In this document: positions 4,707 through 21,582 of the stretch, in pieces
Layout: each line of letters starts with the position of its first letter
How positions within the stretch are numbered: the first letter of the stretch is position 1
NCBI GenBank assembly: GCA_045543555.1
Contig: JAZQMQ010000023.1
Span: forward strand, 5,446-69,445
Reading direction: 5' to 3'
Length of the DNA: 64,000 nt
DNA from: Eubacteriales bacterium
Lineage (GTDB): Bacteria; Bacillota; Clostridia; Oscillospirales; CAG-272
Program-made: the position numbers and the translations under genes
The notes under the pieces: model-generated
What the model was told of the DNA's origin: nothing
Databases searched by the model: none
The model's input: the letters and a program-made list of their open reading frames with translations, nothing else

Positions 4707-4735
4707 TTGATTCGTCCGTGTGAATATGATATAAT
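4707..4735 (+). promoter_or_regulatory. sigma-A promoter of the salvage operon
   Basis: TTGATT-17 nt-TATAAT with extended TG. Confidence 0.65.
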
Positions 4736-4770
4736 GAAGTATAATGGTTCTTACGTATGGGGGATTGGCA

Positions 4771-5352
4771 GTGGCAAAGTTATATTTCAAATACGGCGCA
4801 ATGGGGTCGTGTAAAACTGCTCAGGCGCTAACGACAAAATTCAATTACGAGGAACGCGGCATGAACGTTTGGCTTATTAAGCCATCTACAGACGACAGAG
4901 ACGGTAGCGATATAGTTAAATCCCGTATCGGACTCACCGCTCCTTGCAGCAGCATTCCGCAGACAATGGATATTTATCGGGAATTTATGGACAAGCATGG
5001 TGATGTCGACGTCATCATAGCCGATGAGTGTCAGTTCTTCACCGAACAACAGATCGATCAGCTTCGTCTCATAGTTAATGAATGCGATGTTCCCGTGCTT
5101 TGCTTTGGCCTGCGCACCGATTTCTTGTGTCATCTGTTCACGGGCAGCAAACGCTTATTTGAGGTAGCGGATTCCATAACCGAAATAAAAACGATCTGCT
5201 CCTGCGGAGCAAAAGCAACCGTAAATGCAAGATTTGATGCCAATATGCAGGTCGTCACCGAGGGTGCACAGATCATGATTGGCGGTAATGAGAGCTATAT
5301 AGCCATGTGCCACCGTTGCTGGTGCGAAAAAATCAAACACAAAAGTGTATAA
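4771..5352 (+). CDS. tdk: Thymidine kinase
   Basis: YGAMGSCKT P-loop, IADECQF, FGLRTDF, zinc cysteines CSC...CHRC. GTG 4771 is the likely start. Confidence 0.93.
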   Translation: MAKLYFKYGAMGSCKTAQALTTKFNYEERGMNVWLIKPSTDDRDGSDIVKSRIGLTAPCSSIPQTMDIYREFMDKHGDVDVIIADECQFFTEQQIDQLRLIVNECDVPVLCFGLRTDFLCHLFTGSKRLFEVADSITEIKTICSCGAKATVNARFDANMQVVTEGAQIMIGGNESYIAMCHRCWCEKIKHKSV

Positions 5353-5364
5353 AAGGAGATAATT

Positions 5365-6033
5365 ATGACTATCAAAGAGATTCTCGAAAAGTGTGATCAT
5401 ACTCTGTTAGCGCAGGGCGCTGCTTGGACCGATATCAAGGCTATCTGTGATGACGGAATTCGATACAACACAGCTTCCGTATGCATTCCCGCATCACACG
5501 TAAAGCAGGCTAAGGAATATGTAGGCGACAAGCTCGCTATCTGTACAGTTATCGGCTTCCCAAACGGCTATTCCACTACCGCTGTAAAGATTTTTGAATG
5601 TAAGGACGCTTTGGCAAACGGAGCTGATGAGATCGATACCGTTATTAACATAGGTCATCTTAAGGCAGGAATGTACGATGAGATACTTTTCGAGCTAAGT
5701 GAGCTAAAAAAAGCCTGTGGTGACAAAATACTCAAGGTTATAATCGAGACCTGCCTTCTCACAGAAGCAGAAAAGATCAAGATGTGTGAGCTTGTCACCA
5801 AATCCGGAGCTGATTTCATCAAAACCTCCACGGGATTTTCCACCGGCGGAGCTACACTTGAGGACGTAGCACTCTTAGCCAAGCACATTGGCGAGGGAGT
5901 ACAGATCAAAGCCGCAGGCGGCATTTCTTCCCTTGCAGACGCCGAAGCATTTATCAATCTTGGCGCAACGCGTCTCGGAACCAGCAGAATAGTAAAGATT
6001 GCAAAAAACGAAGAAAACAATTCTGCTTACTAA
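5365..6033 (+). CDS. deoC: Deoxyribose-phosphate aldolase
   Basis: [37 protein letters not shown]. Confidence 0.95.
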
Positions 6034-6043
6034 GGAGGACACT

Positions 6044-6766
6044 ATGACTGATCAACACACCCCACATATCAAAGCAACCTCATCGGATTTTGCCAAAACC
6101 GTGCTTATGCCCGGTGATCCGCTTCGTTCCAAATTTGTTGCGGAAAATTTTCTTTGCGACCCCAAGCTGATCAATAACGTACGCGGTATCCAAGGCTACA
6201 CCGGTACGTATAACGGTGTGCCTGTTACAGTTATGGCAAGTGGAATGGGTATGCCGTCGATTGGAATTTATTCCTATGAGCTTTTCAACTTCTTTGGCGT
6301 TGAAAACATCATCCGTATCGGTTCTGCAGGCGGACTTGCAGACAGCGTTCAGCTCCGCGACATAATAATCGGTATGGGCGCATGCACCAACTCCGCATAT
6401 CAGGATCAGTATAATCTGAACGGTAATTTTGCTCCAATTGCCAGCTTCGAGCTCCTTTCCCACGCGGTAGATGAGGCAAAAGCAATAGGCGTACGTTATC
6501 AGGTAGGAAACCTTTTATCCTCCGACGTATTCTATCACGCTGACCCTAACTTTAATCAGGGTTGGTATAAGATGGGAGTCCTCGGAGTTGAAATGGAGGC
6601 TGCAGCGTTGTATATGAACGCAGCCGCGGCAGGTAAACGAGCGCTTGCGATCTGTACTGTATCCGATCACATTCTGCGCGGTGAAGCACTTGATGCGGAC
6701 GCACGTCAGAACACGTTTACAGACATGATGACCATTGCCTTAAACGTGGCAGTTAAAATGTCCTGA
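6044..6766 (+). CDS. deoD: Purine-nucleoside phosphorylase (DeoD type)
   Basis: TPHI, MPGDPLR, GMGMPS, IRIGSAG, VEMEAA, TVSDH. ATG 6044 follows AAGGAGG. Confidence 0.95.
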   Translation: MTDQHTPHIKATSSDFAKTVLMPGDPLRSKFVAENFLCDPKLINNVRGIQGYTGTYNGVPVTVMASGMGMPSIGIYSYELFNFFGVENIIRIGSAGGLADSVQLRDIIIGMGACTNSAYQDQYNLNGNFAPIASFELLSHAVDEAKAIGVRYQVGNLLSSDVFYHADPNFNQGWYKMGVLGVEMEAAALYMNAAAAGKRALAICTVSDHILRGEALDADARQNTFTDMMTIALNVAVKMS

Positions 6767-6857
6767 TCGTTTTGCGCGTCTTAATTACGCTTGTTTTTTG
6801 ACATTGATCTGACGTATCGATCTGTATCCAATTATCACAATTAAGGAGGTTCGTCAT

Positions 6858-7499
6858 ATGAGCAAATGCTTATTCATAGGTATCGCGGGTGGCTCGGGTA
6901 GCGGAAAAACAACACTTGCAAAGCACTTGGCTGACCATTTCGGAAGCCGTCTTTCTCTTCTGCGCCATGATGATTATTATAAAGAACAGAGCAACCTGCC
7001 CATTGAGAAACGTGCCGCACTTAATTTTGATCATCCCGATGCTTTTGATACCGATCTTCTGATATGGCATCTTGATGAATTACGACAGGGGAACAGCATC
7101 ACCTGTCCGGTTTACGATTACACAAAGCACGACCGCAGCTCCACAGTTCGCACGGTCAACCCCACGGACGTCATTCTCCTTGAGGGCATTCTGATTTTTG
7201 AGAATCCCGAGATCTTGCGCCGTCTGGACATTAAAATTTTTGTTGATACCGATGCCGACGTGCGCATTTTGCGCAGGATCAGACGCGACGTTTTAGAGCG
7301 AGGACGCGATCTTGAATCCGTCATATCTAAATATCTTGCCACGGTAAAGCCCATGCACGAAGCCTTTGTTGAGCCAAGCAAGAGAAGTGCAGATATCATT
7401 GTGCCGGAGGGCGGTATGAACCGCGTGGCACTTGAAATGATCATAGATCGGATCGTTTCACACCTAAATCGGAAAGGAAGCAATACCACTTATGTTTGA
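6858..7499 (+). CDS. udk: Uridine kinase
   Basis: GIAGGSGSGKTT, NFDHPDAFD, RRIRRD, EPSKR. Confidence 0.93.
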   Translation: MSKCLFIGIAGGSGSGKTTLAKHLADHFGSRLSLLRHDDYYKEQSNLPIEKRAALNFDHPDAFDTDLLIWHLDELRQGNSITCPVYDYTKHDRSSTVRTVNPTDVILLEGILIFENPEILRRLDIKIFVDTDADVRILRRIRRDVLERGRDLESVISKYLATVKPMHEAFVEPSKRSADIIVPEGGMNRVALEMIIDRIVSHLNRKGSNTTYV

Positions 7500-8433
7500 A
7501 GCAATATATGAGCTGATCCGTCAGTATCCGCGTATCATCATACACAGACACAAAAATCCCGACGGAGATGCTCTTGGCGCTCAGTTGGGGCTGAAACAGA
7601 TTTTGTGCGAGAATTATCCCGATAAAGAGATATTTGCCGTTGGCGATATGACGTCACGCTATGCATTTATGGCAAATGAGCCGATGAATGATGTTGCAGA
7701 CAGTGCTTATCAAGGCGCACTTGCTATTTTGCTTGATAGCGCCACACCGCCTTTAATTAGTGATGACAGATATACCCTGGCATCCGCCACTGCGCGCATA
7801 GATCATCACGTTTTCTGCGAAAAATTCACCGATGCCGAAGTGATCGATACGTCCTTTGAAAGCTGTTGCGGAATGATTGCCGCAATGGCTATGGAGTGTG
7901 GCTTTAAGCTTTCTCCCAAATCTGCTAAATCGCTTTATACCGGTATGATAACCGATTCGGGCAGATTCCGCTATGACTCGACCACCTCCAAAACCTTCCG
8001 TTTGGCATCGTTTTTGATGGAACAGGGCTTTAATACCACAGATATTTACCAAAATCTCTACGCCGACGAGCTGTCTATGATGCAGCTTCGCGCAAAGTAC
8101 GTTTTAAAAATCCGGACAACTAAGCAAAGGGTTGCATATATCTATACACCGATCGAAGAAGCGAAGAGCTACGGGGTTGACGATTTTACACTATCACGTG
8201 GCATGGTGAACGTTATGTCGGATATACGCGGCATCGATACCTGGGTCAATTTTACGGAAAGCGAAAACGGTGTGCTTTGCGAAATAAGATCAAATCGGCA
8301 TAATATCAACCCAATTGCCACTAAATACGGAGGCGGAGGTCATCAAAAGGCAAGCGGAGCTACTTTAAAGAACAAGAATGAGGCGATGGCATTGCTTGAA
8401 GATCTAAAAGCTCTCTCGGAGGTAAATTCATGA
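7492..8433 (+). CDS. nrnA: DHH-DHHA1 phosphoesterase (NrnA-type nanoRNase/pAp phosphatase), paralog 1
   Basis: HxxPDGDA, IDHH, TDSGRF, GGGGH. Confidence 0.88.
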   Translation: MFEAIYELIRQYPRIIIHRHKNPDGDALGAQLGLKQILCENYPDKEIFAVGDMTSRYAFMANEPMNDVADSAYQGALAILLDSATPPLISDDRYTLASATARIDHHVFCEKFTDAEVIDTSFESCCGMIAAMAMECGFKLSPKSAKSLYTGMITDSGRFRYDSTTSKTFRLASFLMEQGFNTTDIYQNLYADELSMMQLRAKYVLKIRTTKQRVAYIYTPIEEAKSYGVDDFTLSRGMVNVMSDIRGIDTWVNFTESENGVLCEIRSNRHNINPIATKYGGGGHQKASGATLKNKNEAMALLEDLKALSEVNS

Positions 8434-9413
8434 ATATAACGAAGGCACGCGAGGTGCTCGAAAAAATAAAGGAATACGATCGAATAATCATTTTCCGTCA
8501 TTTCAGACCTGATGGAGACGCAGTGGGCTCCACAAAGGGCCTACAGAGAATATTACAGCTCAGCTTTCCCGAAAAAGAAGTGATACTGCAAAATTGCGAT
8601 TCCTCCGATTATCTCGCCTTTCTCGGCGATGAGGAGGAATTGTTGAGCGAGGAGCTTTATGCTGATGCTTTGGGTATTGTGATAGATACCGCAACCACAT
8701 CGCGTATTTCAAATCAGAAATATGCTCTTTGCAAGGAACTGATCAAGATAGATCATCATATAGAGACCGAAACATACGGAGATATTAGCTTGGTTGAGGA
8801 AGAGCGTTCCTCGTCATGCGAGCTGATTGCTGCGTTCTACAGCACTATGCAAGATGAATTGAAGATCGACACCGAGGCTGCAACTTATCTGTACGCAGGT
8901 ATGGTTACCGATTCGGGACGTTTTCGCTTCCGTTCGGTATCCGGAGACACAATGCGTCTTGCGGGAATGCTGCTTGACCTGGGTATCGATACAGACACTC
9001 TCTATGCGCATCTGTATATGAAGGAGTTTGATGAATTCAGGTTTCAAGGATACGTTCTGAATAATATAAAAATCACAGAAAACGGCGTTTCATATATTTA
9101 TATCGACAAAGCTACAATGGATGCATACGGTCTGTCCTATGAGCAGGCATCCGCGTGCGTTTCATATATGGATTCAATAAAAAACAGCCTTATCTGGATC
9201 GCTTTTATTGATACCGATAATGCTGATGATATTCGTGTTCGTCTTCGCTCCCGTTTTGTAACCGTCAACAAGCTCGCGGAAAAATACGAAGGCGGCGGCC
9301 ATGCCTGTGCAAGCGGCGCGACGGTACATAGCCTTGAGCAGATGCAGGAGCTTATAAATGAGGCGGATGTTCTTCTCGGAGATTATAAGGAAATAAACGA
9401 AGGATGGCTATAA
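8430..9413 (+). CDS. nrnA: DHH-DHHA1 phosphoesterase (NrnA-type), paralog 2
   Basis: HxRPDGDA, IDHH, TDSGRF, RxRLRSR, GGGH; ATGA-coupled to paralog 1. Confidence 0.88.
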   Translation: MNITKAREVLEKIKEYDRIIIFRHFRPDGDAVGSTKGLQRILQLSFPEKEVILQNCDSSDYLAFLGDEEELLSEELYADALGIVIDTATTSRISNQKYALCKELIKIDHHIETETYGDISLVEEERSSSCELIAAFYSTMQDELKIDTEAATYLYAGMVTDSGRFRFRSVSGDTMRLAGMLLDLGIDTDTLYAHLYMKEFDEFRFQGYVLNNIKITENGVSYIYIDKATMDAYGLSYEQASACVSYMDSIKNSLIWIAFIDTDNADDIRVRLRSRFVTVNKLAEKYEGGGHACASGATVHSLEQMQELINEADVLLGDYKEINEGWL

Positions 9414-10129
9414 TGAGAATACTCATAACAAATGACGATGGCATTCATTCCCCCGTTCTTCCTCTTCTTGCAAAATGGGTTGAGAGATTAGGCGAGGTTA
9501 CCATCGCTGCTCCCAAGGCAGAACAAAGCGGAAAGAGTCAAGCGATCAATTTTACCCATGATATCGAGATCACCAAGGTGGAGATCGCGACCGGGATAAC
9601 AGGTTACGCGGTAGACTCAACTCCCGCGGACTGTGTGCGCTTTGGAGTACACGGACTTAAGCAGAATTACGACCTGATCATATCGGGTATAAATCGCGGA
9701 TATAATCTTGGCGACGATATTGTATATTCCGGCACCTGCGGTGCAATTTTTGAAGGCGCAAGAATGGGAATAAACGGTCTTGCCGTTTCATCGGATGTTG
9801 ATGATCTTATGAATGCTCCCGATTATATGGAAAGAATTTGGGAATTTATCAAGGAAAAAGAGCTTTATACTCATAATCCGATATATAACGTGAATATTCC
9901 CCCCAATCCCCGAGGCATCAGGATCACAAAGCAAGGCGGTATGTATTACTGTGACACCTTCACACACAAAGGCGGGCATCTGTACGTACAAACGGGCGAT
10001 ATTAAGCAGGATTCGGGAAACGATCCCACCTCCGATATAAATACGGTGCGCGAAGGTGTAATATCGGTAACACCCCTTATCGCGACCCGCACCGAAATGT
10101 CCGTATTTAAAAAATTGGGTTCAATTTAA
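9413..10129 (+). CDS. surE: 5'/3'-nucleotidase SurE
   Basis: MRILITNDDG, QSG, TPADCV, SGINxGxNLG, YSGT; TAATG overlap with the upstream stop. Confidence 0.92.
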   Translation: MRILITNDDGIHSPVLPLLAKWVERLGEVTIAAPKAEQSGKSQAINFTHDIEITKVEIATGITGYAVDSTPADCVRFGVHGLKQNYDLIISGINRGYNLGDDIVYSGTCGAIFEGARMGINGLAVSSDVDDLMNAPDYMERIWEFIKEKELYTHNPIYNVNIPPNPRGIRITKQGGMYYCDTFTHKGGHLYVQTGDIKQDSGNDPTSDINTVREGVISVTPLIATRTEMSVFKKLGSI

Positions 10130-10130
10130 T

Positions 10131-10287: not shown

Positions 10288-10668
10288 TTATTGCTGACGA
10301 GCCGTTTGTCGCATAACCGAAGCGCTCTCCTCAATCGTAAATACAACCGAATCGCTAAAATCTTGATAAAGTGCAGTTGCTGTGGATACACCAGACCTTA
10401 CAGCCACCACTATTCCATATTCATCGACCGTGACTGCATCCCCTTCAACCGTCCAGACTATCTCCGACAGTGAAATCTCGTATGGCTCCACCACAAGCAG
10501 ACACACGTCGCCAATGCCAAGTGTTCGGCCCTCCTCCCCCTCTATTTCCAATGAGGTCATCGGAATTTTGCCGTTTTTTTCGGATCCTCCTGTGCTACAG
10601 CCCGAAATTAGCGAGAGCATCATCACTATCGCCACAAGCGTTGCAGTAAGCTTAGAAAACAATTTCAT
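10288..10668 (-). CDS. Small lipoprotein with one Ig-like (Big_2-like) domain, possibly truncated
   Basis: Signal peptide ending LISGC; IVWTV...VTVDEYGIVVAV..G.STATA pattern. Confidence 0.6.
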   Translation of the reverse strand: MKLFSKLTATLVAIVMMLSLISGCSTGGSEKNGKIPMTSLEIEGEEGRTLGIGDVCLLVVEPYEISLSEIVWTVEGDAVTVDEYGIVVAVRSGVSTATALYQDFSDSVVFTIEESASVMRQTARQQ

Positions 10669-10801: not shown

Positions 10802-10834
10802 AGACATGCGCTTAATTATAAAGCAAACCTAGTA

Positions 10835-14422: not shown

Positions 14423-15994
14423 TTATTGAGCGTGATACTTACACTCATCAATAGCCTTTTTAAAGAGCTTCTTTATATCTCCCATTACGTCTGTGGATGT
14501 AGCGGGAAGCTTGAATGCAGACTGGATAAGCTTACCAACCTCGTCACGAGCCTTTGCGGAGCCGTTGAATGCGGGAGAAGTGTAGTAGTAGTTCTCCTGC
14601 TCAAGACAAGTCTTAACAGAGAGAGCAGCGATGTTATCTCCGCCGTCGGCATTTGCAAGGAAATCAGCGTAGATCTCGTCGGTATTTACCGATTTGATAA
14701 CCGGAACGTATCCGGATTCACGGGAGAAGTCTGCCTGGAATGCAACGTTTGTGCAAAGGAACTTAACGAAGAGCCAAGATGCCTTCATCTCTTCCTCGGA
14801 CGCCTCAAAAATGCAGAGGGAGGGACCCTGGGAAATAACCTTGGGGTTTTCCTTGTTGTACTGAGGAATAGGAGTGATGCCTACCTCGAAGGGATATTTG
14901 CCGTCTGTTCCTACTGCGGGACGCTGATGAGTTGCGCCTGCGGAGGAACCGATGGACATATAGGATTTTGTACCGGTCTTAGCGGTAAAGAGCGAGGATG
15001 TGTAAGAGCCGTGGATCTCCTGTGTGGTTACGTAACCCTTGAGATACCATTCTCTGAATTTTGCAACGAAATTGTGGTGTGCCTCGGTATCGAAGAGGAA
15101 CTTTTCACCTTCGGAGCTGGTGTAGGGGAGTCCCATCTGCTCACACATGGTGATGAACCAGTTTGCCTCGGAGTCGTAACCAAGCGGAATTACCTGCGCG
15201 AGCTTCTTGCCGTCCTTGTCCAGATAGATCTTGTAGCCGTTCTTGGTGGTTTCGATCTTTGCGGCGTCTGCCTTGGTCTTATCGGAAAGTCTGTCGTTCT
15301 CGATTCCTATGATGCGCTCGCAAATAAGCTCCATTTCATCCCAAGTGGTAGGAACGAAAATGTTGTACATCTCATTTCCCTTGTTGAGGTTGGGCTTGTT
15401 GCCGTCTACGGGGTTTCCGTTGAGGTCAAGAGCAACGTCGGAGGTATATACCTTTTGTGCAACCTCAAAATATGTCTTGTTGTAGTAGAGGACCTCTGTT
15501 GACTTGGAAAGAGGCATGGTGTACATAAGTCCGTCACCGAACTGCTTACCTTCCTCATAATAAGCCTGAATGAAGTCAGCCTTCTGCTCTTCGGTAAGGC
15601 CGAGAATCTCGGTGGTACCGTCAGCTCTTTCAACTACCTCGTCGCTGTCGATGTAGTCATCGAGAGTTTTAACGGCGAGAGCGAGGTTGTACAGAGCAAC
15701 GTGGTCGGGATAGCAGTAAGCGATGTTAGGCTGCTTTCCTGCGGTGATCTCAGTCGCGATCTGGTCGCGAACGTCCTCGTATCCGCCTATTTGCTCGTGG
15801 TCGATTTTGTACTGGGGATAAAGAGCTTCAAACTCCTTAATGTACTGGTTGAGTACCTTTCTTAAGCCTTCTCCCATCGTGTGGTAGAATCTGATGTGGA
15901 TCTTTCCGTCATTTGTCTTGTTGCAGCTTGCAAGGCCGAGACACGCAGACAGAAGCATGGTTGCGATTAGAATGAAAGCGATTATTCTTTTCAT
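14423..15994 (-). CDS. ABC transporter substrate-binding lipoprotein (CUT1/SBP_bac_1-like)
   Basis: Signal MKRIIAF...LASC, F/YH.M N-terminal motif, PLSKSTEVLYYNK, PTTWDE. ATG 15994 follows AAAGGA. Confidence 0.88.
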   Translation of the reverse strand: MKRIIAFILIATMLLSACLGLASCNKTNDGKIHIRFYHTMGEGLRKVLNQYIKEFEALYPQYKIDHEQIGGYEDVRDQIATEITAGKQPNIAYCYPDHVALYNLALAVKTLDDYIDSDEVVERADGTTEILGLTEEQKADFIQAYYEEGKQFGDGLMYTMPLSKSTEVLYYNKTYFEVAQKVYTSDVALDLNGNPVDGNKPNLNKGNEMYNIFVPTTWDEMELICERIIGIENDRLSDKTKADAAKIETTKNGYKIYLDKDGKKLAQVIPLGYDSEANWFITMCEQMGLPYTSSEGEKFLFDTEAHHNFVAKFREWYLKGYVTTQEIHGSYTSSLFTAKTGTKSYMSIGSSAGATHQRPAVGTDGKYPFEVGITPIPQYNKENPKVISQGPSLCIFEASEEEMKASWLFVKFLCTNVAFQADFSRESGYVPVIKSVNTDEIYADFLANADGGDNIAALSVKTCLEQENYYYTSPAFNGSAKARDEVGKLIQSAFKLPATSTDVMGDIKKLFKKAIDECKYHAQ

Positions 15995-16089: not shown

Positions 16090-17094
16090 TTAACCCTTGA
16101 TTCCGCTTCTCGAAACACCCTTCATAATATATTTACGAAGGAAGAGGAAAACAAGGAAGAGAGGAAGCGACACGATTGCAACAGCCGCCATCTGTCTCGG
16201 GTAATGGATCATGTTGTCGACGGTAAAGTCGGCACCGCGAAGTCCATTCGTAATGAGCTTATGTGCGTCATCGTTTGCAACGAGTCTCGGCCAAACGTAT
16301 GAGTTCCACGCGCCCATCATCTTGAGTATTGTGATAGATATGATAGTAGGAAGCGCCAGAGGTATCATTACCTTCCAAAGATACTTCAGGTCCTTTGTGC
16401 CGTCGACCTTAGCCGCAAGATACAGCTCATTTGGTATCTGCATAAAATTCTGCTTGAGAAGATATATGTAGAACACGCTTACGAGGAAAGGAACGATAAG
16501 GACCGTATAGGTGTTTGACCAGTTTCCGAGCTGCATCAGGAAATCGGAATTCATTTCACGTCCAAGGGTGTTTAGACCGAGGAAGTTATTTATTGTCTGG
16601 TAGTTAGTGATGGTAAAAAGCTCTCCCGGTATCATCATGGTTGCCAGCAATGCTGCAAACAGTGCGTTTTTTCCCTTGAATTCGAGTCTCGCAAATGCGA
16701 AAGCAGAAATTACAGTGATCACAAGTGAAAGTATGGTGGAAACCACACCAACGTACACGGTATTCAGGAACAGCTGACCTAAATTCGCGATCTTGAAGCC
16801 CTGAATGTAATTTTCAAAGTGGAATTGTGTCGGGAACATTGTGGGAATAGCGCGGTTGTATTCCTCAAGAGACTTGACAGAGGATATCAGCATCCAATAA
16901 AACGGGAAAAGTACGATTATAGCCATTGTCAGCAAAAATGCGTAAAGCGCGATCTTTACAAACATCTTTACGACCTTCTGCTTGGCTGATACCTTGTTCA
17001 TATCTCTTTCTGCCATAACGGTTATGGCAGATGCGGAGGCGGGAGCTGAGTCTTCGGCTTCGTTCAGTCGAATATTTTTGTTGTTTTCAGACAT
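16090..17094 (-). CDS. ABC transporter permease (MalG/UgpE-like)
   Basis: PFYWM, AFAFARL, EAA-type loop IPNELYLAAKVDG, WNSYVWP. Confidence 0.9.
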   Translation of the reverse strand: MSENNKNIRLNEAEDSAPASASAITVMAERDMNKVSAKQKVVKMFVKIALYAFLLTMAIIVLFPFYWMLISSVKSLEEYNRAIPTMFPTQFHFENYIQGFKIANLGQLFLNTVYVGVVSTILSLVITVISAFAFARLEFKGKNALFAALLATMMIPGELFTITNYQTINNFLGLNTLGREMNSDFLMQLGNWSNTYTVLIVPFLVSVFYIYLLKQNFMQIPNELYLAAKVDGTKDLKYLWKVMIPLALPTIISITILKMMGAWNSYVWPRLVANDDAHKLITNGLRGADFTVDNMIHYPRQMAAVAIVSLPLFLVFLFLRKYIMKGVSRSGIKG

Positions 17095-17109
17095 TTGTGC
17101 AGCCTCCTA

Positions 17110-18066
17110 TCAATAGTGTGTTTTTTTCTTTGAAACGTAAAGATTTATCATCGTAACGACGAATATAATTCCAAAGAGTATAAGAGCAGCTGCGCTTGCA
17201 CGTCCCAGATGCTGCTGAGGAAGTGCATTGTAAATGAATCCGACCATTGTATTCAGTCTGCCCGCATCTCCGACGGGCCCCATACTGTCACCGAATACGC
17301 CGACGATGGACGAATACTCCTTAAATCCTCCGATGAAGCCCGTTATAACAACGTATGCAAGCATTGGGGAAAGAAGCGGAACAGTGATTTTCGTGAAAAC
17401 TCTGAATCGGGATGTGCCGTCAACCTTTGCGGCATCGTAATACTGCTTGTTAACGCTCTGCAGACCGCCGAGAAGAATGAGAATCTTGAACGGAAGTGCG
17501 TTCCATACTATGTAGATAACCATTACAACGTAGTTTGGCCACGTGCCCGAGCCCGTTCCCATCCAGTCGATAGGCTCACCGCCAAACCAACCGATAATAT
17601 TGTTAACGATACCGTAGGAGTCAACCAGACCCGAATCAAAATTACCGATAACCGAGAACATAGCCGCAAATACCATACCGATAGCGATGGAATTGGTTAC
17701 GTAGGGAAGGAAGAAAATGGTCTGAATAAATTTTGAAAGGAATTTGATCGAATTCAGACAAACCGCGATAACCAAAGCCAAAATAGTTGATATCGGAACT
17801 GTCAGAACGCAAAGAAGAAGCGTATTTGTAAGACATTTGATGAAGTCGGGATACTGCGCAACCTTAACGAAGTTGCCAAATCCGAAATCGAAGTGATATC
17901 CGCCGGGACGGTTTGCAAGCAGTGAGTTGTAGCCTTCTAAGAGCGATATTCTAATCGTGTTGAAGATAGGCCATACCGTGAATATGAGCAGAAGGATTAT
18001 GGCAGGAGAAAGATAAAACCAACCCTTCCACTTATCGAACTTGATTTTCTGTAAGAAGCCTGCCAT
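17110..18066 (-). CDS. ABC transporter permease (MalF/UgpA-like)
   Basis: FFLPYV, EAA-type loop YYDAAKVDG, ITVPLLSP, multiple TM segments. Confidence 0.9.
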   Translation of the reverse strand: MAGFLQKIKFDKWKGWFYLSPAIILLLIFTVWPIFNTIRISLLEGYNSLLANRPGGYHFDFGFGNFVKVAQYPDFIKCLTNTLLLCVLTVPISTILALVIAVCLNSIKFLSKFIQTIFFLPYVTNSIAIGMVFAAMFSVIGNFDSGLVDSYGIVNNIIGWFGGEPIDWMGTGSGTWPNYVVMVIYIVWNALPFKILILLGGLQSVNKQYYDAAKVDGTSRFRVFTKITVPLLSPMLAYVVITGFIGGFKEYSSIVGVFGDSMGPVGDAGRLNTMVGFIYNALPQQHLGRASAAALILFGIIFVVTMINLYVSKKKTHY

Positions 18067-18067
18067 A

Positions 18068-19216
18068 TCAGTTCTCCTCTGTGTTTTTCAGATTCTGCTG
18101 ATCACCGAAGTAGATGCGCTCCTCGGTGGATTTGTCGAAGAGGAATACCTTGTGGGGCTTGAGTGAGAAGGATATCGTCTCACCAGAAGATACCTTATAG
18201 TCAGCATCAACGATGGAACGGATCGTCGGGTTAAGTGATGCGGGATGTGTAGAGACGATGGAAACGTCGCGTCCCATAACCTCTACGGTATTAAGATTAC
18301 AGGTGAGAGTACCGCTGGCATCGGGAATGAAGCCCTCGGGACGAACACCCACGGTTACAAGGCAATCAGCCACACCGTCTGTGTTCATAGCGAATTCGCC
18401 GCCTTCAAAGTCGTCAGTGCCGCCTATATAAAGCTTACCGCCCTGTACGTATCCATTGAACACGTTTATTGGGGGAGTTCCGAGGAACTTGGCAACAAAG
18501 AGATTGGTGGGATCGTCGTAAACGTCCTGAGGACGACCGATCTGCTGCAAAACTCCGAGCTTCATAACTACGATCATATCGGAGACAGACATAGCCTCCT
18601 CCTGGTCGTGTGTAACGAAGATGGTTGTGATGCCGGTCTCCTTCTGAATACGGCGGATCTCCTCACGGGTCTGCAAGCGAAGACGTGCGTCAAGATTTGA
18701 AAGAGGCTCGTCAAGGAGCAGGACCTTGGGCATCTTTACAAGAGCACGGGCAATTGCAACACGCTGCTGCTGACCGCCCGAGAGCTCGCTGGGCTTACGG
18801 TCCATAAGTTCGTCGATCTGAACCAGCTTTGCCGCCTCATAGGCTCTCTCTATCATCTGATCCTTGGTCAGCTTGTCCGCGCCGCGCAGATTTTGAAGCG
18901 GGAAAAGAATATTCTGCTTAACTGTCATATGAGGATATAGCGCATAATTCTGGAACACGAGACCTACTCCGCGATTTTCGGGGGTAAGATCGGTTACGTC
19001 CTCATCCCCAAAGAAGATATGTCCGCTTGATGGCTTCTGCAATCCGCTGATCATATACAGCGTGGTACTTTTACCACATCCGGAGGGTCCAAGCAGTCCT
19101 ATCAGCTTACCGTCGGGGATGGTAAAGGAAAAGTCATTGACCGCAATAACTTTCTCGCCTGATTTTTTGTTTCTGGACGGGAAAATCTTGGTCAGATTTT
19201 GCAAAACAACTTTCAT
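18068..19216 (-). CDS. ABC transporter ATP-binding subunit (MalK/UgpC-like)
   Basis: GPSGCGKST, FQNYALYPHM, LSGGQQQR, LLLDEPLSNLD, VTHDQ. Confidence 0.95.
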   Translation of the reverse strand: MKVVLQNLTKIFPSRNKKSGEKVIAVNDFSFTIPDGKLIGLLGPSGCGKSTTLYMISGLQKPSSGHIFFGDEDVTDLTPENRGVGLVFQNYALYPHMTVKQNILFPLQNLRGADKLTKDQMIERAYEAAKLVQIDELMDRKPSELSGGQQQRVAIARALVKMPKVLLLDEPLSNLDARLRLQTREEIRRIQKETGITTIFVTHDQEEAMSVSDMIVVMKLGVLQQIGRPQDVYDDPTNLFVAKFLGTPPINVFNGYVQGGKLYIGGTDDFEGGEFAMNTDGVADCLVTVGVRPEGFIPDASGTLTCNLNTVEVMGRDVSIVSTHPASLNPTIRSIVDADYKVSSGETISFSLKPHKVFLFDKSTEERIYFGDQQNLKNTEEN

Positions 19217-19263
19217 GTCGTTTCCCTTTCTCTATATCATTTTTTCTTTTACAGTTTGTTACT

Positions 19264-20040
19264 TTATAAATTGTCGCTCTTCTCCGAGCTTACACGTTCA
19301 GCGTGAATACACTGCTTGTATGCGATCAGATCATCGACGGTATCAAATATCCTTTGGCTTGCATAATCTACAGCTACAGTGTGTGACAGCTTATCGTGCA
19401 ATACAGAGTGTGTATCCGTTGCAATCAGGAGAATGGCCTGCAGGATCAGGATTCCAAGAAGTATAACAGTTCCTGTGATTCCTATGGCGTTCATATATAT
19501 CATCAGTATGATAAGGACCGGAAGCATCGTTTCTACCGCATACTTTCCCAAGACAGCGCGTACGAAGAGAACGACCGGTGAGATCTTTACGCCATCCTCT
19601 CGCATGACCGCAATTCCAAAGATCTTTTTACCGAGGGTTTGTCCGTTTCCAAACAACAGCGGGACAATAAATTCAAGCAGAATGAACGCGATGAAAATAC
19701 TGATGGATATGATCAAAAAAGTAAGATTTATAAGCACGTTATATACGTAATTTGCTTCCTTGTCTTTTGAAAACTCATCCATTGCGAATTTGTATATGTC
19801 CAGCTCTTCTTTGGTAAGCTTTTCGTAATCTTCTTCTGAAATATCAAAATCCACGTTATATTTTTTTTCATATTCTTCGCTTATCGATTCCAAGCGGGCT
19901 GTATGATCGTCGTAGCCCAACGCACATGACATAACAAATGCTACACCAACAACCAATATTGACGCTAAAATAAAGTCAAAAAGAGCCGCGGAAATACGTT
20001 TCCACATACCTGCTTTTTGAAGGTCATACATAAAATTCAC
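19264..20040 (-). CDS. RDD-family membrane protein
   Basis: KRISAALFD, GQTLGKKIFGI, LHDKLSHT.V. Confidence 0.8.
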   Translation of the reverse strand: MNFMYDLQKAGMWKRISAALFDFILASILVVGVAFVMSCALGYDDHTARLESISEEYEKKYNVDFDISEEDYEKLTKEELDIYKFAMDEFSKDKEANYVYNVLINLTFLIISISIFIAFILLEFIVPLLFGNGQTLGKKIFGIAVMREDGVKISPVVLFVRAVLGKYAVETMLPVLIILMIYMNAIGITGTVILLGILILQAILLIATDTHSVLHDKLSHTVAVDYASQRIFDTVDDLIAYKQCIHAERVSSEKSDNL

Positions 20041-20126
20041 CTCCTGTACCGGCTCAATGCATTATTAACTCATCTCTGTTCTATCATTTATCAAAAACAC
20101 GCGCAAAAACATAGACGTTCAGCATA

Positions 20127-20155
20127 ATTATAGTATATGTCGGAACAAAAATCAA
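20127..20155 (-). promoter_or_regulatory. sigma-A promoter of the RDD-ABC-nuclease operon
   Basis: Minus strand TTGATT-17 nt-TATAAT. Confidence 0.65.
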
Positions 20156-20206
20156 GTCTTTAACGCAAAATAAAAGCTCAAAATATACAATTATACAAAA
20201 TACAGA

Positions 20207-20236
20207 GCAAGAAGCAAGATCAACCTTGCTTCTTGC
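20207..20236. terminator. Hairpin downstream of the NT5C-GK gene
   Basis: GCAAGAAGCAAG-6 nt-CTTGCTTCTTGC. Confidence 0.55.
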
Positions 20237-20256
20237 GGTTTTTATTGTTGTGCGTA

Positions 20257-21363
20257 TCATTTTTCAATCGCATCAGTTATATCGCTCGCGGCTTTGTCGA
20301 TGCCGTTATCGGTGGATACAGACAGATCGCAAAGCTCTTCGTTGCGGTATTCGTCGTCGAGGGAGAGAATGCGGCAGGTAATATCGTCGGAAGAAAGGTC
20401 TCGTGTAACGATATCCTTGATCACATCATAGCGCGTTTTGTTCAGGAAAACCAGCAACGCTTTCTGCTGATAGCGATTTTTCAGCGTCAGCGCGCCGCAG
20501 ATATCGATGGGAATGACCGCTATTTTACCGCGTTCAACAACCGAATCGATCTCTTTTGCCTCCGTTCCGAAATAATGTCCGCTGTAAACCGTAGTCTCAA
20601 GGAAACGACCCGCCTCTGCCTCTGAAACGAATTCAGACACATTGAGAAAACGGTAATGACCGATCGACTCACCGTTTCTGCGTGGACGTGTGGTGGCGGT
20701 AGTGGGCTTTTCCATACCGTGATCCTCGATAAGCTTCTGTGCCACTGCGGTCTTTCCGCTACCCGTAGGACCAACAAGACAAACGACGCCTCCGTTTTTC
20801 AAATCAGGCTTTTCCGCGGAAAATGAATTTCTTATCATTTCAACCAAATGCAAAAAGTCCTCATAAGAATTAACCGAAAGAAGACCTGAAAGATGAGTGT
20901 TCCACGGCTTACGGAAAAGCACCGGATACGTGGCGGGAGTACGAGTAATATTATGGGCACCGTCGTCGAGAAGAATATCCAAATTTACCATATCCTTTCG
21001 TGTGCCGATAAGAATATGCTCGGGCGGGACCTCAGGAAAATCCTTCACCAAGCGTTCTGCTCTTGCCGACATACAAACCGGTGGCACAGCGGTAACAAAA
21101 AAGACATCCGCCACAGCGCAAAGACTGCGCACAAGCTCAACCGCCCCCGGCAGAATGGGCTGGTTTGCCACAAAATCAGGGTCGGAAAAATATCGCAGAC
21201 GACCGTCAGCCAGGTTATGACCGTCTCCCCAGCCCTTAATATCGTATATAGTCAGCAGTGGGGTGATATTCTGCTCTGCATTCAGGCGCTCCAGGGCATA
21301 TCCGTTACAATCATAGAGAATATCGTCTACATCAAGACCGATTCTCAGCTTGTATTTTTTCAT
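20257..21363 (-). CDS. Fusion of HAD 5'(3')-deoxyribonucleotidase (NT5C-like) and guanylate-kinase-like domains
   Basis: N-terminal LDVDDIL, FVTA, DILLDDG, PWN. C-terminal GPTGSGKT, TTRPRRNGE, Y.F, YSGHYFGT. ATG 21363 follows GAGGA. Confidence 0.82.
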   Translation of the reverse strand: MKKYKLRIGLDVDDILYDCNGYALERLNAEQNITPLLTIYDIKGWGDGHNLADGRLRYFSDPDFVANQPILPGAVELVRSLCAVADVFFVTAVPPVCMSARAERLVKDFPEVPPEHILIGTRKDMVNLDILLDDGAHNITRTPATYPVLFRKPWNTHLSGLLSVNSYEDFLHLVEMIRNSFSAEKPDLKNGGVVCLVGPTGSGKTAVAQKLIEDHGMEKPTTATTRPRRNGESIGHYRFLNVSEFVSEAEAGRFLETTVYSGHYFGTEAKEIDSVVERGKIAVIPIDICGALTLKNRYQQKALLVFLNKTRYDVIKDIVTRDLSSDDITCRILSLDDEYRNEELCDLSVSTDNGIDKAASDITDAIEK

Positions 21364-21553
21364 ATAATCCTCTTTCCGTTTGATATGCACCCACATACAC
21401 GATCCGTCGCATTTGCCACACAAAAAATGCGGTTATACGCCCGGTGCAAATCAAAATAATCCAATAAGTACGACTTAAGAAAACAAATAAACTTGATCTG
21501 ATAATCAAAAAACGCTTTAGTATTTATCAATATCAAACAACTGATTCACCAAC

Positions 21554-21582
21554 ATCATATCACAAGTGCCGGTCATTGTAAA
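21554..21582 (-). promoter_or_regulatory. Candidate sigma-A promoter giving an approximately 185 nt leader to the NT5C-GK gene
   Basis: Minus strand TTTACA-17 nt-TATGAT with extended TG. Confidence 0.5.

What the first reader, a model, noticed from the sequence alone, without database searches (positions are those of the whole stretch)
4707..21582. Candidate complete nucleic-acid utilization locus: surface capture, nuclease, ABC import, oligonucleotide breakdown and salvage
Seen: two convergent operons, each with a sigma-A promoter. On the minus strand, RDD, ABC ATPase, two permeases, SBP, an SNase-OB lipoprotein and a multi-OB lipoprotein. On the plus strand, tdk-deoC-deoD-udk-nrnA-nrnA-surE. 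An NT5C-GK fusion is adjacent. Known: SNase yields 3'-phosphorylated mono- and short oligonucleotides; NrnA degrades very short oligonucleotides and pAp; SurE and NT5C remove 3'/5' phosphates; Tdk and Udk salvage nucleosides; DeoD and DeoC catabolise them. Mycoplasmas have SNase lipoproteins beside ABC importers. Inference: this is a polysaccharide-utilization-locus-like system for eating extracellular DNA/RNA. Automated annotation would probably read it as a sugar ABC transporter plus scattered salvage genes. I do not know of this arrangement being described in Clostridia.
Basis: partly seen in the sequence, partly recalled or inferred. Interest (0 to 1): 0.85.

Follow-up and report, generated by a model that had tools for sequence, protein, structure and literature searches.

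The report
Surface nuclease plus oligonucleotide importer locus
A gut bacterium carries a conserved gene set that most likely catches DNA or RNA outside the cell, cuts it, imports the small pieces and finishes them inside; similar sets are already proposed for mycoplasmas and Izemoplasma.

Summary
RDD-ATPase-permease-permease-SBP-SNase lipoprotein is a fixed cassette, found in 50 of 50 related loci with enough upstream DNA. It keeps the same order in 19 of 20 regions inspected from a second bacterial class; the 20th is cut by a contig end.

The tandem nrnA pair lies within 10 kb in 27 of 40 loci, with surE in 26.

Among 41 relatives, surE is in 12 of 13 SNase-positive genomes and 0 of 28 negative ones. 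The nrnA pair is in 13 of 13, beside a separate housekeeping NrnA-like gene.

The SBP's best solved relative, by sequence and by fold, is a Thermus dinucleotide-binding ABC protein, followed by UgpB.

The genome keeps de novo purine and pyrimidine genes, so this is scavenging, not auxotrophy. deoB was not found, so "complete" is not shown.

Function is inferred; nothing was measured. The concept is already published for mycoplasmas (2013) and Izemoplasma (2021), and this scan found the cassette before in another genome. Verdict: a new member of a known kind, with the co-inherited NrnA-NrnA-SurE module and the dinucleotide-binder link as additions.

The parts
4707..4735 (+). promoter-like site before tdk (TTGATT, 17 nt spacer, TG-extended TATAAT)
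   Evidence: matches 10 of 12 positions. Consensus match only; the region has no excess of such sites over shuffles.
4744..5352 (+). tdk, thymidine kinase
   Evidence: Pfam TK E 9.2e-40. NCBIfam NF003300 229 bits, cut-off 195.
5365..6033 (+). deoC, deoxyribose-phosphate aldolase
   Evidence: NCBIfam TIGR00126 222 bits, cut-off 117.
5999..6766 (+). deoD, purine nucleoside phosphorylase. The ORF is listed as found; the family match begins at residue 20, so the true start is probably later.
   Evidence: NCBIfam NF004489 331 bits, cut-off 230.
6858..7499 (+). udk, uridine kinase
   Evidence: NCBIfam NF004018 283 bits, cut-off 180.
7492..8433 (+). nrnA1, NrnA-like DHH/DHHA1 phosphoesterase. No signal peptide by eye. 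Overlaps udk by 8 nt.
   Evidence: Pfam DHH + DHHA1. NrnA equivalog 240 bits, below the 350 cut-off. The DHH, DSGRFR and GGGH motifs are visible.
8430..9413 (+). nrnA2, second NrnA-like DHH/DHHA1 phosphoesterase. 34% identical to nrnA1 and overlaps it by 4 nt.
   Evidence: Its orthologues track the nuclease cassette among 41 relatives.
9404..10129 (+). surE, 5'/3'-nucleotidase, cytoplasmic (begins MRILITNDDG after 3 residues)
   Evidence: TIGR00087 159 bits, cut-off 135. Translation. Found in 12 of 13 nuclease-positive relatives and 0 of 28 negative ones.
10288..10668 (-). small lipoprotein (126 aa), last gene of the minus-strand unit; function unknown
   Evidence: ORF and lipobox ISGC. No Pfam family. 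A homologue was seen in 1 of 80 loci.
10835..13027 (-). multi-OB surface lipoprotein (730 aa). It has three near-identical C-terminal OB repeats plus an aBig_2 domain. Proposed nucleic-acid capture protein.
   Evidence: Pfam tRNA_anti-codon OB, BOF and aBig_2. NCBIfam ExeM/NucH N-terminal region E 2e-12, below cut-off. Atlas clusters of OB-fold nucleic-acid-binding proteins. No PDB sequence match.
13100..14413 (-). SNase-domain lipoprotein (437 aa) with two C-terminal beta-rich domains
   Evidence: Pfam SNase. AF2 model pLDDT 81.5. Foldseek to staphylococcal nuclease: TM 0.84, 27% identity. Catalytic map: D21, R35, T41, E43 and R87 are kept; D40 is N in all 12 sequences of the alignment.
14423..15994 (-). 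substrate-binding lipoprotein of the CUT1 ABC system (523 aa from the likely start; the ORF runs to 16078)
   Evidence: Pfam SBP_bac_8. Weak NCBIfam hits to UgpB and to mycoplasma lipo_P68, both below cut-off. Best PDB relative is the dinucleotide-binding protein 7C0F series. AF2 model pLDDT 89.2.
16090..17094 (-). ABC permease 2 (UgpE/MalG-like)
   Evidence: Pfam BPD_transp_1; NCBIfam.
17110..18066 (-). ABC permease 1 (UgpA/MalF-like)
   Evidence: Pfam BPD_transp_1; NCBIfam.
18068..19216 (-). ABC ATPase (UgpC/MalK-like)
   Evidence: Pfam ABC_tran. NCBIfam UgpC 345 bits, below the 432 cut-off.
19264..20031 (-). RDD-family membrane protein, first gene of the cassette. The likely start, MYDLQKA, follows an AGGAGG.
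   Evidence: Pfam RDD E 8.7e-18. Sequence. Present as the first gene in 50 of 50 loci.
20127..20155 (-). promoter-like site before RDD (TTGATT, 17 nt spacer, TATAAT)
   Evidence: matches 10 of 12 positions; consensus match only.
20207..20236 (.). 13-pair hairpin followed by a T run, between NT5C-GK and RDD (terminator-like on both strands)
20257..21423 (-). NT5C (5'(3')-deoxyribonucleotidase-like) fused to a guanylate-kinase-like domain; probably its own transcription unit
   Evidence: Pfam NT5C + Guanylate_kin. Guanylate kinase equivalog 89 bits, below the 160 cut-off. A homologue lies beside the cassette or the nrnA pair in 6 of 80 loci.
21554..21582 (-). promoter-like site before NT5C-GK
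   Evidence: matches 10 of 12 positions; consensus match only.

Best explanation
The locus is a module for scavenging extracellular nucleic acid.

Proposed chain of events (all steps inferred):
1. A multi-OB lipoprotein holds DNA or RNA at the cell surface.
2. The SNase lipoprotein cuts it to short pieces. Staphylococcal-type nucleases leave 3'-phosphates (established knowledge of the family).
3. The lipoprotein SBP hands short phosphorylated products to a CUT1-type ABC importer. These are most likely dinucleotides or short oligonucleotides, and perhaps 3'-mononucleotides. An RDD membrane protein is encoded first in the importer's operon.
4. Inside the cell, two dedicated NrnA-like DHH/DHHA1 phosphoesterases split the oligonucleotides. 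SurE removes terminal phosphates.
5. Tdk, Udk and the NT5C-kinase fusion then route the nucleosides and nucleotides to salvage. DeoD and DeoC route them to catabolism.

Shown here: gene content, conserved order, co-inheritance, and the SBP's kinship to a dinucleotide binder.
Inferred: every activity, the substrate, and the direction of flow.
For: Gene families.

Fixed cassette:
- The SBP lies directly upstream of the nuclease gene in 70 of 70 loci with at least 1.7 kb upstream.
- RDD-ATPase-permease-permease-SBP-nuclease is present in 50 of 50 loci with at least 5.7 kb upstream.
- The same order recurs in 20 regions that I picked from 186 matching genomes of a second class. The SBP is adjacent in 20 of 20. 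The ABC genes are present in 19 of 20; the 20th region is cut by a contig end.

Coupling to the cytoplasmic module:
- The nrnA pair lies within 10 kb in 27 of 40 loci, with surE too in 26.
- Among 41 relatives the nuclease is in 13 genomes. surE is in 12 of those 13 and in 0 of the other 28. Both nrnA paralogues are in 13 of 13.
- One of the 28 negative genomes, 76% complete, has an nrnA2 orthologue.
- The window's genome and the negative genomes carry a separate, distant NrnA-like gene (22-31% identity). The pair is therefore an extra, not the housekeeping enzyme.
- Three further cassette genomes in which I looked all have the pair.
- A salvage gene (tdk, udk, NT5C-GK or deoD) lies within 1.5 kb of nrnA1 in 16 of 36 loci with the pair.

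Substrate:
- The SBP's best PDB match is the dinucleotide-binding ABC protein. By sequence: E 2.7e-12, against 7.7e-7 for UgpB and 1.1e-5 for a maltodextrin binder. By profile: 2e-22 against 4e-16. By fold: 7C0V E 7e-23, TM 0.80.
- Eight residues are named as mutated in those PDB titles. Of these, 3 are identical and 3 conservatively replaced in the SBP, and all six are invariant in 25 homologues.
- No UshA-type ecto-nucleotidase domain (PF02872) was found in the genome.
- A Bmp-type nucleoside SBP exists elsewhere in the genome, so nucleosides already have a route in.

Expression hint: contigs from two RNA libraries of one study lie on deoD, udk, nrnA1, the multi-OB gene and the nuclease gene, with 0-10 differences per 150-365 nt.
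Against: - No activity, binding or transport has been measured for this cassette in any organism, as far as my reading went.
- The fold match to the dinucleotide binder is only slightly better than to sugar binders. TM scores are equal at about 0.6/0.8, and E is 7e-23 against 1e-20.
- Two of the eight ligand-site residues differ: Y224 aligns to L335/F336 and Y246 to H356.
- The nuclease has N where staphylococcal nuclease has the metal ligand D40.
- deoB was not found, so the DeoD-to-DeoC route has a gap.
- The genome keeps a full-looking pur operon plus pyrB and carB, so import is not essential.
- In 13 of 40 loci the nrnA pair is not within 10 kb.
- A Ugp/Gts-like ABC system of M. bovis was assigned to nucleoside uptake, not oligonucleotide uptake, by metabolomics (PMC12838404, passages read).
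- RNA-library contigs can stem from carried-over DNA (note).
- The related genomes are kin, so the co-occurrence counts overstate independence.
Confidence: 0.62

Rival explanations
1. Surface digestion happens as proposed, but the transporter imports nucleosides. An unidentified surface phosphatase strips the phosphates first. The NrnA-like pair and SurE serve internal RNA and cyclic-dinucleotide turnover.
For: - An M. bovis Ugp/Gts-like ABC operon (membrane protein, ATPase, two permeases, lipoprotein) was linked to nucleoside uptake and to use of extracellular DNA (PMC12838404, passages read).
- A tandem DHH pair in M. bovis acts on cyclic dinucleotides and nanoRNA made inside the cell (PMC7373297, passages read).
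- Wasmund et al. took the ABC systems of the Izemoplasma loci for nucleoside or nucleobase transporters (PMC8289736).
Against: - No phosphatase with a signal peptide is encoded in the cassette.
- PF02872 was not found in the genome.
- The genome already has a Bmp-type nucleoside SBP and a separate housekeeping NrnA-like gene.
- surE and the pair are gained and lost together with the cassette. That is hard to explain if they only serve internal turnover.
- The SBP's nearest solved relatives all bind phosphate esters.
Confidence: 0.22
2. The ABC system is a Ugp-like importer of glycerol-3-phosphate, glycerophosphodiesters or a sugar. The nuclease beside it serves another purpose, and the neighbourhood with salvage genes is incidental.
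For: - The best NCBIfam names are UgpB, UgpA, UgpE and UgpC, all below their cut-offs.
- UgpB structures rank just after the dinucleotide binder.
- The PDB molecule name of the top hit is 'Sugar ABC transporter'.
Against: - SBP-nuclease adjacency holds in 70 of 70 and 20 of 20 loci across two classes.
- The UgpB equivalog scores 48.5 bits against a cut-off of 411.
- The cassette is co-inherited with enzymes that process nucleotides.
Confidence: 0.08
3. The surface nuclease and OB proteins act mainly in biofilm remodelling, or in defence against foreign DNA or DNA traps. Nutrition is a side effect.
For: Mycoplasma SNase lipoproteins degrade neutrophil traps (review PMC9740415, passages read).
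Against: - The carriers here are MAGs whose record titles name rumen, caecum and faeces samples.
- The tight operon with an importer, and the co-inherited cytoplasmic finishing enzymes, point to uptake.
Confidence: 0.06

Closest known systems
Mollicutes SNase-lipoprotein / ABC-transporter operons (M. agalactiae MAG_5030-5070, M. hyopneumoniae mhp379, M. pneumoniae Mpn133, M. hominis MHO_0730)
   Same: - An SNase lipoprotein, an SBP-like lipoprotein (P80) and a sugar-type ABC ATPase with two permeases sit in one transcript.
- They have been proposed to feed nucleic-acid precursors to the cell (PMC3585158 and PMC9740415, passages read).
- The window's SBP weakly matches NCBIfam lipo_P68, a mycoplasma surface lipoprotein family (E 1e-10).
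- Regions from the class that holds a genome titled 'Mollicutes bacterium' show the same genes.
   Different: - In M. agalactiae the order is P80, SNase, ATPase, permeases. Here it is RDD, ATPase, permeases, SBP, SNase, multi-OB.
- The carriers here are not auxotrophs.
- Here an extra NrnA-NrnA-SurE module and salvage or catabolic genes are attached.
- I could not fetch named mycoplasma sequences, so orthology to the published genes is not tested directly.
DNA-degradation loci of Candidatus Izemoplasma (Wasmund et al. 2021, PMC8289736; Zheng et al. 2021, PMC8397711)
   Same: [quoted passage not shown]
- They were explicitly compared with polysaccharide utilisation loci.
- DNA supports growth of a cultured strain and induces the cluster (passages read).
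   Different: - Marine sediment organisms, against the gut-labelled MAGs here.
- Those loci include phosphate transporters and secreted nucleotidases.
- The authors assumed nucleoside or nucleobase import.
- I could not see the figures or supplements, so I cannot tell whether their ABC system is the same family.
Dinucleotide-binding SBP of a Thermus thermophilus ABC transporter (PDB 7C0F-7C1B; Chandravanshi et al. 2021, FEBS J; known to me only from the PDB titles and from a citation in PMC12718374)
   Same: - It is the best sequence and fold match of the window's SBP.
- Both belong to the branch of CUT1 binding proteins that bind phosphate esters.
- Six of the eight residues mutated by the depositors are identical or conservatively replaced.
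   Different: - Only about 18% identity.
- The window's SBP is a lipoprotein with extra inserts.
- The Thermus paper itself is not held in the library, so its operon context and affinities were not seen.
Tandem DHH/DHHA1 phosphodiesterases of M. bovis, Mbov_0328/0327 (PMC7373297)
   Same: - Two adjacent NrnA-related genes.
- Together they supply mononucleotides, and their loss is rescued by added NMPs or nucleosides (passages read).
   Different: - There, one enzyme is a cyclic-dinucleotide phosphodiesterase and the pair is read as internal recycling.
- Here the pair is an accessory duo beside a third NrnA-like gene, and it travels with the importer.
Polysaccharide utilisation loci of Bacteroidota
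   Same: The logic: surface binding protein, surface enzyme, dedicated importer and cytoplasmic finishing enzymes in one locus.
   Different: - No SusC/SusD pair.
- The importer is an ABC system.
- The substrate is nucleic acid.
- This is an analogy only.
Bacillus subtilis YhcR (recalled: a wall-bound, sugar-non-specific nuclease with OB, SNase and 5'-nucleotidase domains)
   Same: SNase combined with OB-type domains on the cell surface. JGI names two homologues of the window's nuclease after YncB/YhcR.
   Different: The window's protein has no nucleotidase domain.

Membership tests
Mollicutes-type SNase-lipoprotein / ABC importer operon | Surface lipoprotein with a staphylococcal-nuclease domain | tested here: met
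   Pfam SNase. Fold TM 0.84 to staphylococcal nuclease. Lipobox FTAC with an invariant Cys, read by eye.
Mollicutes-type SNase-lipoprotein / ABC importer operon | Nuclease gene directly beside a sugar-type ABC ATPase, two permeases and an SBP-like lipoprotein | tested here: met
   50 of 50 loci; 19 of 20 regions of a second class; the 20th is cut by a contig end.
Mollicutes-type SNase-lipoprotein / ABC importer operon | Co-transcription of the nuclease with the transporter genes | tested here: inconclusive
   - Gaps between genes are 1-95 nt, with no terminator-like site between them.
- One RNA-library contig spans the multi-OB/nuclease junction, but contigs do not prove a single transcript.
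Mollicutes-type SNase-lipoprotein / ABC importer operon | Nuclease activity on DNA and RNA | not testable with these tools
   Catalytic R35, E43 and R87 and ligands D21 and T41 are conserved. D40 is replaced by N.
CUT1 dinucleotide-binding SBP (PDB 7C0F type) | Same fold, and closest solved relative | tested here: met
CUT1 dinucleotide-binding SBP (PDB 7C0F type) | Conserved ligand-site residues (Y56, F79, N81, S127, Y224, T240, Y246, Q274, taken from the PDB titles) | tested here: inconclusive
   alignment:
- Y72, S165 and Q389 are identical.
- Y95, D97 and S350 are conservative replacements.
- L335/F336 and H356 differ.
That these eight residues touch the ligand is my inference from the fact that the depositors mutated them.
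CUT1 dinucleotide-binding SBP (PDB 7C0F type) | Binds a dinucleotide | not testable with these tools
UgpB (glycerol-3-phosphate SBP) | Passes the NCBIfam equivalog NF008211 | tested here: not met
   48.5 bits against a cut-off of 411; N-terminal part only.
NrnA (bifunctional oligoribonuclease / pAp phosphatase) | DHH and DHHA1 domains with catalytic motifs | tested here: met
   (DGDA, IDHH, DSGRFR and GGGH in both paralogues).
NrnA (bifunctional oligoribonuclease / pAp phosphatase) | Passes the NCBIfam equivalog NF053633 | tested here: not met
   240 and 235 bits against a cut-off of 350.
SurE 5'/3'-nucleotidase | Passes the equivalog TIGR00087 | tested here: met
   159 bits against a cut-off of 135.
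Polysaccharide utilisation locus | SusC/SusD-like pair | tested here: not met
   No such family among the locus proteins. The resemblance is in logic only.

The most novel reading that the evidence does not exclude
This would be the first definable bacterial ABC importer for the 3'-phosphorylated di- and oligonucleotides that SNase-type nucleases release. Three features would define it:
- An RDD protein acts as a fixed membrane accessory.
- A co-inherited cytoplasmic finishing trio is dedicated to the imported pieces: two specialised, possibly hetero-oligomeric, NrnA-like enzymes plus SurE.
- The whole works as one transferable module, shared between gut Clostridia-labelled lineages, a Mollicutes-containing class and some spirochaetes.

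It would answer the long-standing question of how mycoplasmas and their relatives take up phosphorylated nucleic-acid fragments.
Probability: 0.35. Interest if true: 0.75.

Novelty: new member of a known kind. Interest (0 to 1): 0.5.

Why it matters
Bacterial membranes are held to be closed to nucleotides. How mycoplasmas and other scavengers take in nuclease products has been argued from gene neighbourhood alone since 2007-2013.

- The binding protein is kin to a dinucleotide binder.
- The importer travels with two extra short-oligonucleotide hydrolases and a 3'/5'-nucleotidase.

If this holds, three things follow:
- A widespread 'sugar ABC transporter' annotation in gut, rumen and mollicute genomes should be re-read as an oligonucleotide importer.
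- DNA and RNA released by lysis would count as a contested nutrient in gut communities.
- The mycoplasma systems would gain a tractable biochemical model.

If the binding protein turns out to bind nucleosides, the locus is still a nucleic-acid scavenging module, but an ordinary one.

Tried and rejected
- Complex prediction of RDD against the two permeases, using alignments A3-A5. Result: no verdict (score 0.08, mark 0.32). This is no evidence either way.
- Rfam scan of 3900-22500 at E up to 1. No riboswitch or leader; only three weak chance-level hits.
- PDB sequence search with the multi-OB protein: 0 hits.
- Atlas search with the C-terminal half of the nuclease protein. Only unnamed clusters and weak leads: PF01336 in 10% and DUF5689 in 22% of members. 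The 'OB' label stays unproven.
- Foldseek of the whole nuclease model returned only staphylococcal nuclease chains.
- Paper search for the PDB code 7C0F found nothing relevant. The FEBS J paper on the dinucleotide binder is not held.
- The search of earlier findings by place and by words gave nothing.
It was redone through a genome handle, as the tool advised.
- Read laying. The bins without RNA-library cover (9409-10610 and 20227-21428) prove nothing. The high depth at 14818-16019 and 18424-19024 comes from conserved parts shared with other organisms and was not used.
- The idea that carriers are purine auxotrophs was dropped. It was raised by the missing canonical purF. The pur operon is present.
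- Origin of the cassette in the Mollicutes-containing class. The tree has those rows as a basal grade, but it is only midpoint-rooted and was built with FastTree. No direction of transfer is claimed.

Full report
WHAT IS THERE

The window lies in a 1.68 Mb metagenome-assembled genome of 36 contigs, 89.8% complete.

On the plus strand, seven genes follow one another with gaps of at most 91 nt or small overlaps:
- thymidine kinase
- deoxyribose-phosphate aldolase
- DeoD-type purine nucleoside phosphorylase
- uridine kinase
- two DHH/DHHA1 phosphoesterases
- SurE

Tdk, DeoC, DeoD, Udk and SurE each pass an NCBIfam curated cut-off. The two DHH proteins are 34% identical and both keep the DHH and DHHA1 motifs. 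They score 240 and 235 bits against the NrnA equivalog, whose cut-off is 350, so I call them NrnA-like.

On the minus strand, running towards them, the genes are:
- an RDD-family membrane protein
- a UgpC/MalK-like ATPase
- two permeases
- a family-1 solute-binding lipoprotein
- a lipoprotein with a staphylococcal-nuclease domain
- a 730-aa lipoprotein with an aBig_2 domain and three near-identical C-terminal OB repeats

Upstream of RDD there is a hairpin and a promoter-like site. The NT5C-guanylate-kinase fusion beyond them is therefore probably a separate unit. No known riboswitch or leader was found. The flanking genes are unrelated and none looks like a regulator. They encode an EF-G-like protein, an amidohydrolase, an amino-acid dehydrogenase and an oxoacid:ferredoxin oxidoreductase.

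THE CASSETTE IS FIXED AND WIDESPREAD

The nuclease lipoprotein has thousands of relatives: 5952 of 8000 scored candidates at E up to 0.001. The few that carry names are called thermonuclease family protein or hypothetical protein.

The best 80 loci come almost all from MAGs titled Oscillospiraceae, Clostridia, Eubacteriales or Lachnospiraceae, from rumen, caecum and faeces samples. A few are titled Spirochaetales, Mollicutes or Bacilli.

I laid the window's 16 proteins on these 80 loci with tblastn:
- All 70 loci with at least 1.7 kb upstream have the SBP gene directly before the nuclease gene.
- All 50 loci with at least 5.7 kb upstream have RDD, ATPase, permease, permease, SBP and nuclease on one strand.
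- The slot after the nuclease holds a recognisable multi-OB homologue in 32 of 66 loci with at least 2.5 kb downstream.
- In L064, where tblastn saw none, the slot holds a divergent 1028-aa multi-OB protein. It also holds a Big-like protein with a weak barnase-type ribonuclease match. This is a fast-evolving surface slot.

DISTRIBUTION OVER CLASSES

An even sample of the window's own class gave a match in only 2 of 400 genomes, the window's own included.

The class that holds the genome titled 'Mollicutes bacterium Phil14' gave 186 of 399 at E up to 1e-8, among them genomes of 0.7-1.2 Mb (the tool does not name the class). From those 186 I picked 20 regions: the nine best full-length matches and eleven others, mostly small genomes. 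Results:
- All 20 have an SBP gene (two in tandem in eight of them) next to the nuclease gene.
- 19 have the ATPase and both permeases in the same order. The 20th is cut by its contig end.
- RDD is detectable in 9 of 20.

So the window's cassette is the same thing as a very common cassette of that class. In a FastTree of 90 nuclease proteins, the Clostridia-labelled rows form one well-supported crown group with a few Spirochaetia-, Bacilli- and Mollicutes-labelled rows inside it. The other class forms the deeper branches. The tree is midpoint-rooted only, so I claim no direction of transfer.

THE TWO OPERONS BELONG TOGETHER

Of 40 loci with at least 9.9 kb downstream of the nuclease gene, 27 carry both nrnA paralogues in tandem and 26 carry surE behind them. 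Where any of the three is seen (38 loci), the orientation is convergent in 35 and same-strand in 3.

The stronger evidence is phyletic. Among the 41 nearest genomes:
- The nuclease is present in 13.
- surE is present in 12 of these 13 and in none of the other 28. The exception among the 13 is 71% complete.
- Orthologues of both nrnA paralogues are present in all 13.
- Of the 28 others, one genome (76% complete) has an nrnA2 orthologue. The rest have at most a distant NrnA-like gene of 22-31% identity.

The window's own genome has such a distant third copy as well, on another contig. The pair is thus not the housekeeping nanoRNase. It is an extra that comes and goes with the cassette.

In 10 of the 12 other positive genomes the pair lies on the same contig as the nuclease, a few kb away. 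In three cassette genomes of other lineages that I checked, the pair is also present, once 50 kb away and once on another contig.

Salvage and catabolic genes are attached more loosely:
- One of tdk, udk, deoC, deoD or NT5C-GK is seen in 22 of the 80 loci.
- One of tdk, udk, NT5C-GK or deoD lies within 1.5 kb of nrnA1 in 16 of the 36 loci with the pair.

These genomes are kin, so the counts are not independent events. Even so, within the window's genus the module is patchy (12 of 19 genomes), which speaks for repeated gain or loss as a block.

WHAT IS IMPORTED

The SBP is highly conserved: mean column identity 56% over 25 sequences, with many invariant aromatic residues. It passes no curated family. 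Its weak NCBIfam hits are UgpB (48.5 bits, cut-off 411) and, for its C-terminal part, the mycoplasma lipo_P68 family (E 1e-10).

Against the PDB, the best sequence match is the 7C0F-7C1B series:
- Single sequence: E 2.7e-12, against 7.7e-7 for UgpB and 1.1e-5 for a maltodextrin binder.
- Profile: 2e-22 against 4e-16 for UgpB and 1.6e-12 for the first sugar binder.

An AlphaFold2 model (pLDDT 89.2, pTM 0.86) finds the same series first with Foldseek (E 7e-23, TM 0.80 on the target). The entry titles read 'dinucleotide-binding protein of ABC transporter endogenously bound to uridylyl-3'-5'-phospho-guanosine'. M. tuberculosis and E. coli UgpB follow. The margin over sugar binders in fold terms is small.

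The titles name eight mutated residues. In the HMMER alignment (chain index minus 2), they map as follows:

| Thermus residue | Window SBP residue |
|---|---|
| Y56 | Y72 |
| F79 | Y95 |
| N81 | D97 |
| S127 | S165 |
| Y224 | L335/F336 |
| T240 | S350 |
| Y246 | H356 |
| Q274 | Q389 |

Y72, Y95, D97, S165, S350 and Q389 are invariant in all 25 homologues. A 2025 PNAS paper places this Thermus protein with UgpB and the glycerophosphocholine binder in a phosphate-ester branch of CUT1. It notes conserved Tyr and Ser residues that hold the phosphate (PMC12718374, passages read).

Three further points favour a phosphorylated cargo:
- The cassette encodes no exported phosphatase.
- The UshA-type nucleotidase domain was not found in the genome.
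- A Bmp-type nucleoside-binding protein exists elsewhere, while NupC was not found.

The strongest argument remains the co-inherited cytoplasmic trio. It has no obvious use unless short oligonucleotides and 3'- or 5'-nucleotides arrive inside.

THE NUCLEASE

The N-terminal domain folds like staphylococcal nuclease (TM 0.84, 27% identity). It keeps D21, R35, T41, E43 and R87. The metal ligand D40 is N in all 12 aligned sequences. M. agalactiae's homologue is Mg-dependent and inhibited by Ca (PMC3585158, passages read), so an altered metal site need not mean inactivity. That last step is inference.

NOT AN AUXOTROPH

Found in the genome:
- one operon with purE, a divergent purF-like gene (161 bits, cut-off 350), purM, purN, an AICAR formyltransferase, purD and FGAM synthase
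- guaB, pyrB and carB

Not found: purA and deoB. The assembly is 89.8% complete, so absence is not shown.

The locus therefore serves economy or nutrition (phosphorus, nitrogen, carbon, ready-made nucleotides), not an absolute need. The DeoD-to-DeoC branch has an open link.

EXPRESSION

Sixteen runs hold part of the stretch. The best holders are bovine gut metagenomes, at under 0.3 of the words.

In two metatranscriptomic libraries of one study, short contigs lie on deoD, udk, nrnA1, the multi-OB gene and the nuclease gene, with 0-10 differences per 150-365 nt. One contig spans the multi-OB/nuclease junction. The tool warns that such contigs may stem from DNA and cannot show a single transcript. 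I take this as a weak hint only.

COMPARISON WITH WHAT IS KNOWN

The core idea is in print in four places.

1. In M. agalactiae, the SNase MAG_5040 is transcribed with the lipoprotein P80 and an ABC transporter. The authors proposed that P80 is the binding protein and that the system imports nucleic-acid precursors. The arrangement is conserved in the hominis group and in M. pneumoniae (Mpn133) and M. hyopneumoniae (mhp379) (PMC3585158 and PMC9740415, passages read).
2. [quoted passage not shown] They likened them to polysaccharide utilisation loci (PMC8289736, passages read). Zheng et al. showed that DNA supports growth and induces such a cluster (PMC8397711, passages read).
3. A tandem pair of NrnA-related enzymes supplies mononucleotides in M. 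bovis (PMC7373297).
4. A Ugp/Gts-like ABC operon of M. bovis was tied to nucleoside uptake and use of extracellular DNA (PMC12838404).

By locus-tag numbers, M. pneumoniae's nuclease (MPN133) and its NrnA (MPN140) lie a few genes apart. This is my inference from the tags; I did not check it on a genome.

This scan also met the cassette before, in another gut Clostridia genome, and reached the same reading (finding e1-2347979).

My two keyword searches found no paper on this arrangement in Clostridia.

- the near-perfect co-inheritance of an extra NrnA-NrnA-SurE module
- RDD as a constant first gene
- the SBP's kinship to the one solved dinucleotide-binding ABC protein
- the finding that carriers keep de novo synthesis

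VERDICT

- The locus is a new member of a known, still biochemically untested kind.
- The most valuable next step is a binding assay of the SBP.

Noticed in passing
window 1400-4000 (+): An 866-aa ORF joins a full EF-G-like GTPase (GTP_EFTU, EFG_III, EFG_IV, EFG_C) to a C-terminal YacP-like NYN ribonuclease domain, E 3e-34. This is an unusual fusion of a translation-factor body with a ribosome-associated nuclease domain.
   Followed up: no
G000 contig C24:157534-158961 (L127:7535-8962): The purF position of the pur operon is held by a divergent PurF-like protein (161 bits, cut-off 350). A canonical purF over the cut-off is found in only 2 of 12 nuclease-positive genomes of the genus, against 4 of 7 negative ones. 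All of these also carry the paralogue. The genomes are kin, so this is a pattern, not a test.
   Followed up: partly
window 14423-15994 (-), SBP residues about 178-268: The window's SBP and that of L014 carry an insert of roughly 60-90 residues that the other 23 aligned homologues lack. Relatives in the same genus also lack it: their matches split at residues 206/295.
   Followed up: no
L109, L110, L111, L116, L119, L120, L121, L122: In 8 of the 20 regions from the Mollicutes-containing class, the cassette has two SBP genes in tandem before the nuclease gene. This suggests two substrate specificities.
   Followed up: no
L042, L044, L062 (titles Spirochaetales, Sphaerochaetaceae): Nuclease proteins from spirochaete-labelled MAGs sit inside Clostridia-labelled groups of the tree. 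One pair has 100% local support with a Clostridiales MAG. This could be gene transfer or mis-binning. L062's genome also has the nrnA pair next to the cassette.
   Followed up: partly
L064:14378-15628 (+): In one related locus the slot between the multi-OB gene and surE holds a 416-aa protein. It has a Big-like domain and a weak barnase/T1-type Ribonuclease match, E 0.0011, below the cut-off. It may be an added surface RNase.
   Followed up: no
window 4091-4459 (-): A 122-aa ORF just upstream of the plus-strand operon weakly matches the mobile-element protein family CD1107-like, E 6.9e-5, below the cut-off. This is a faint hint of a mobile context.
   Followed up: no
G000 whole genome: deoB (phosphopentomutase) and purA were not found in the 89.8% complete assembly, although deoC, deoD and the rest of the purine pathway are present.
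   Followed up: partly
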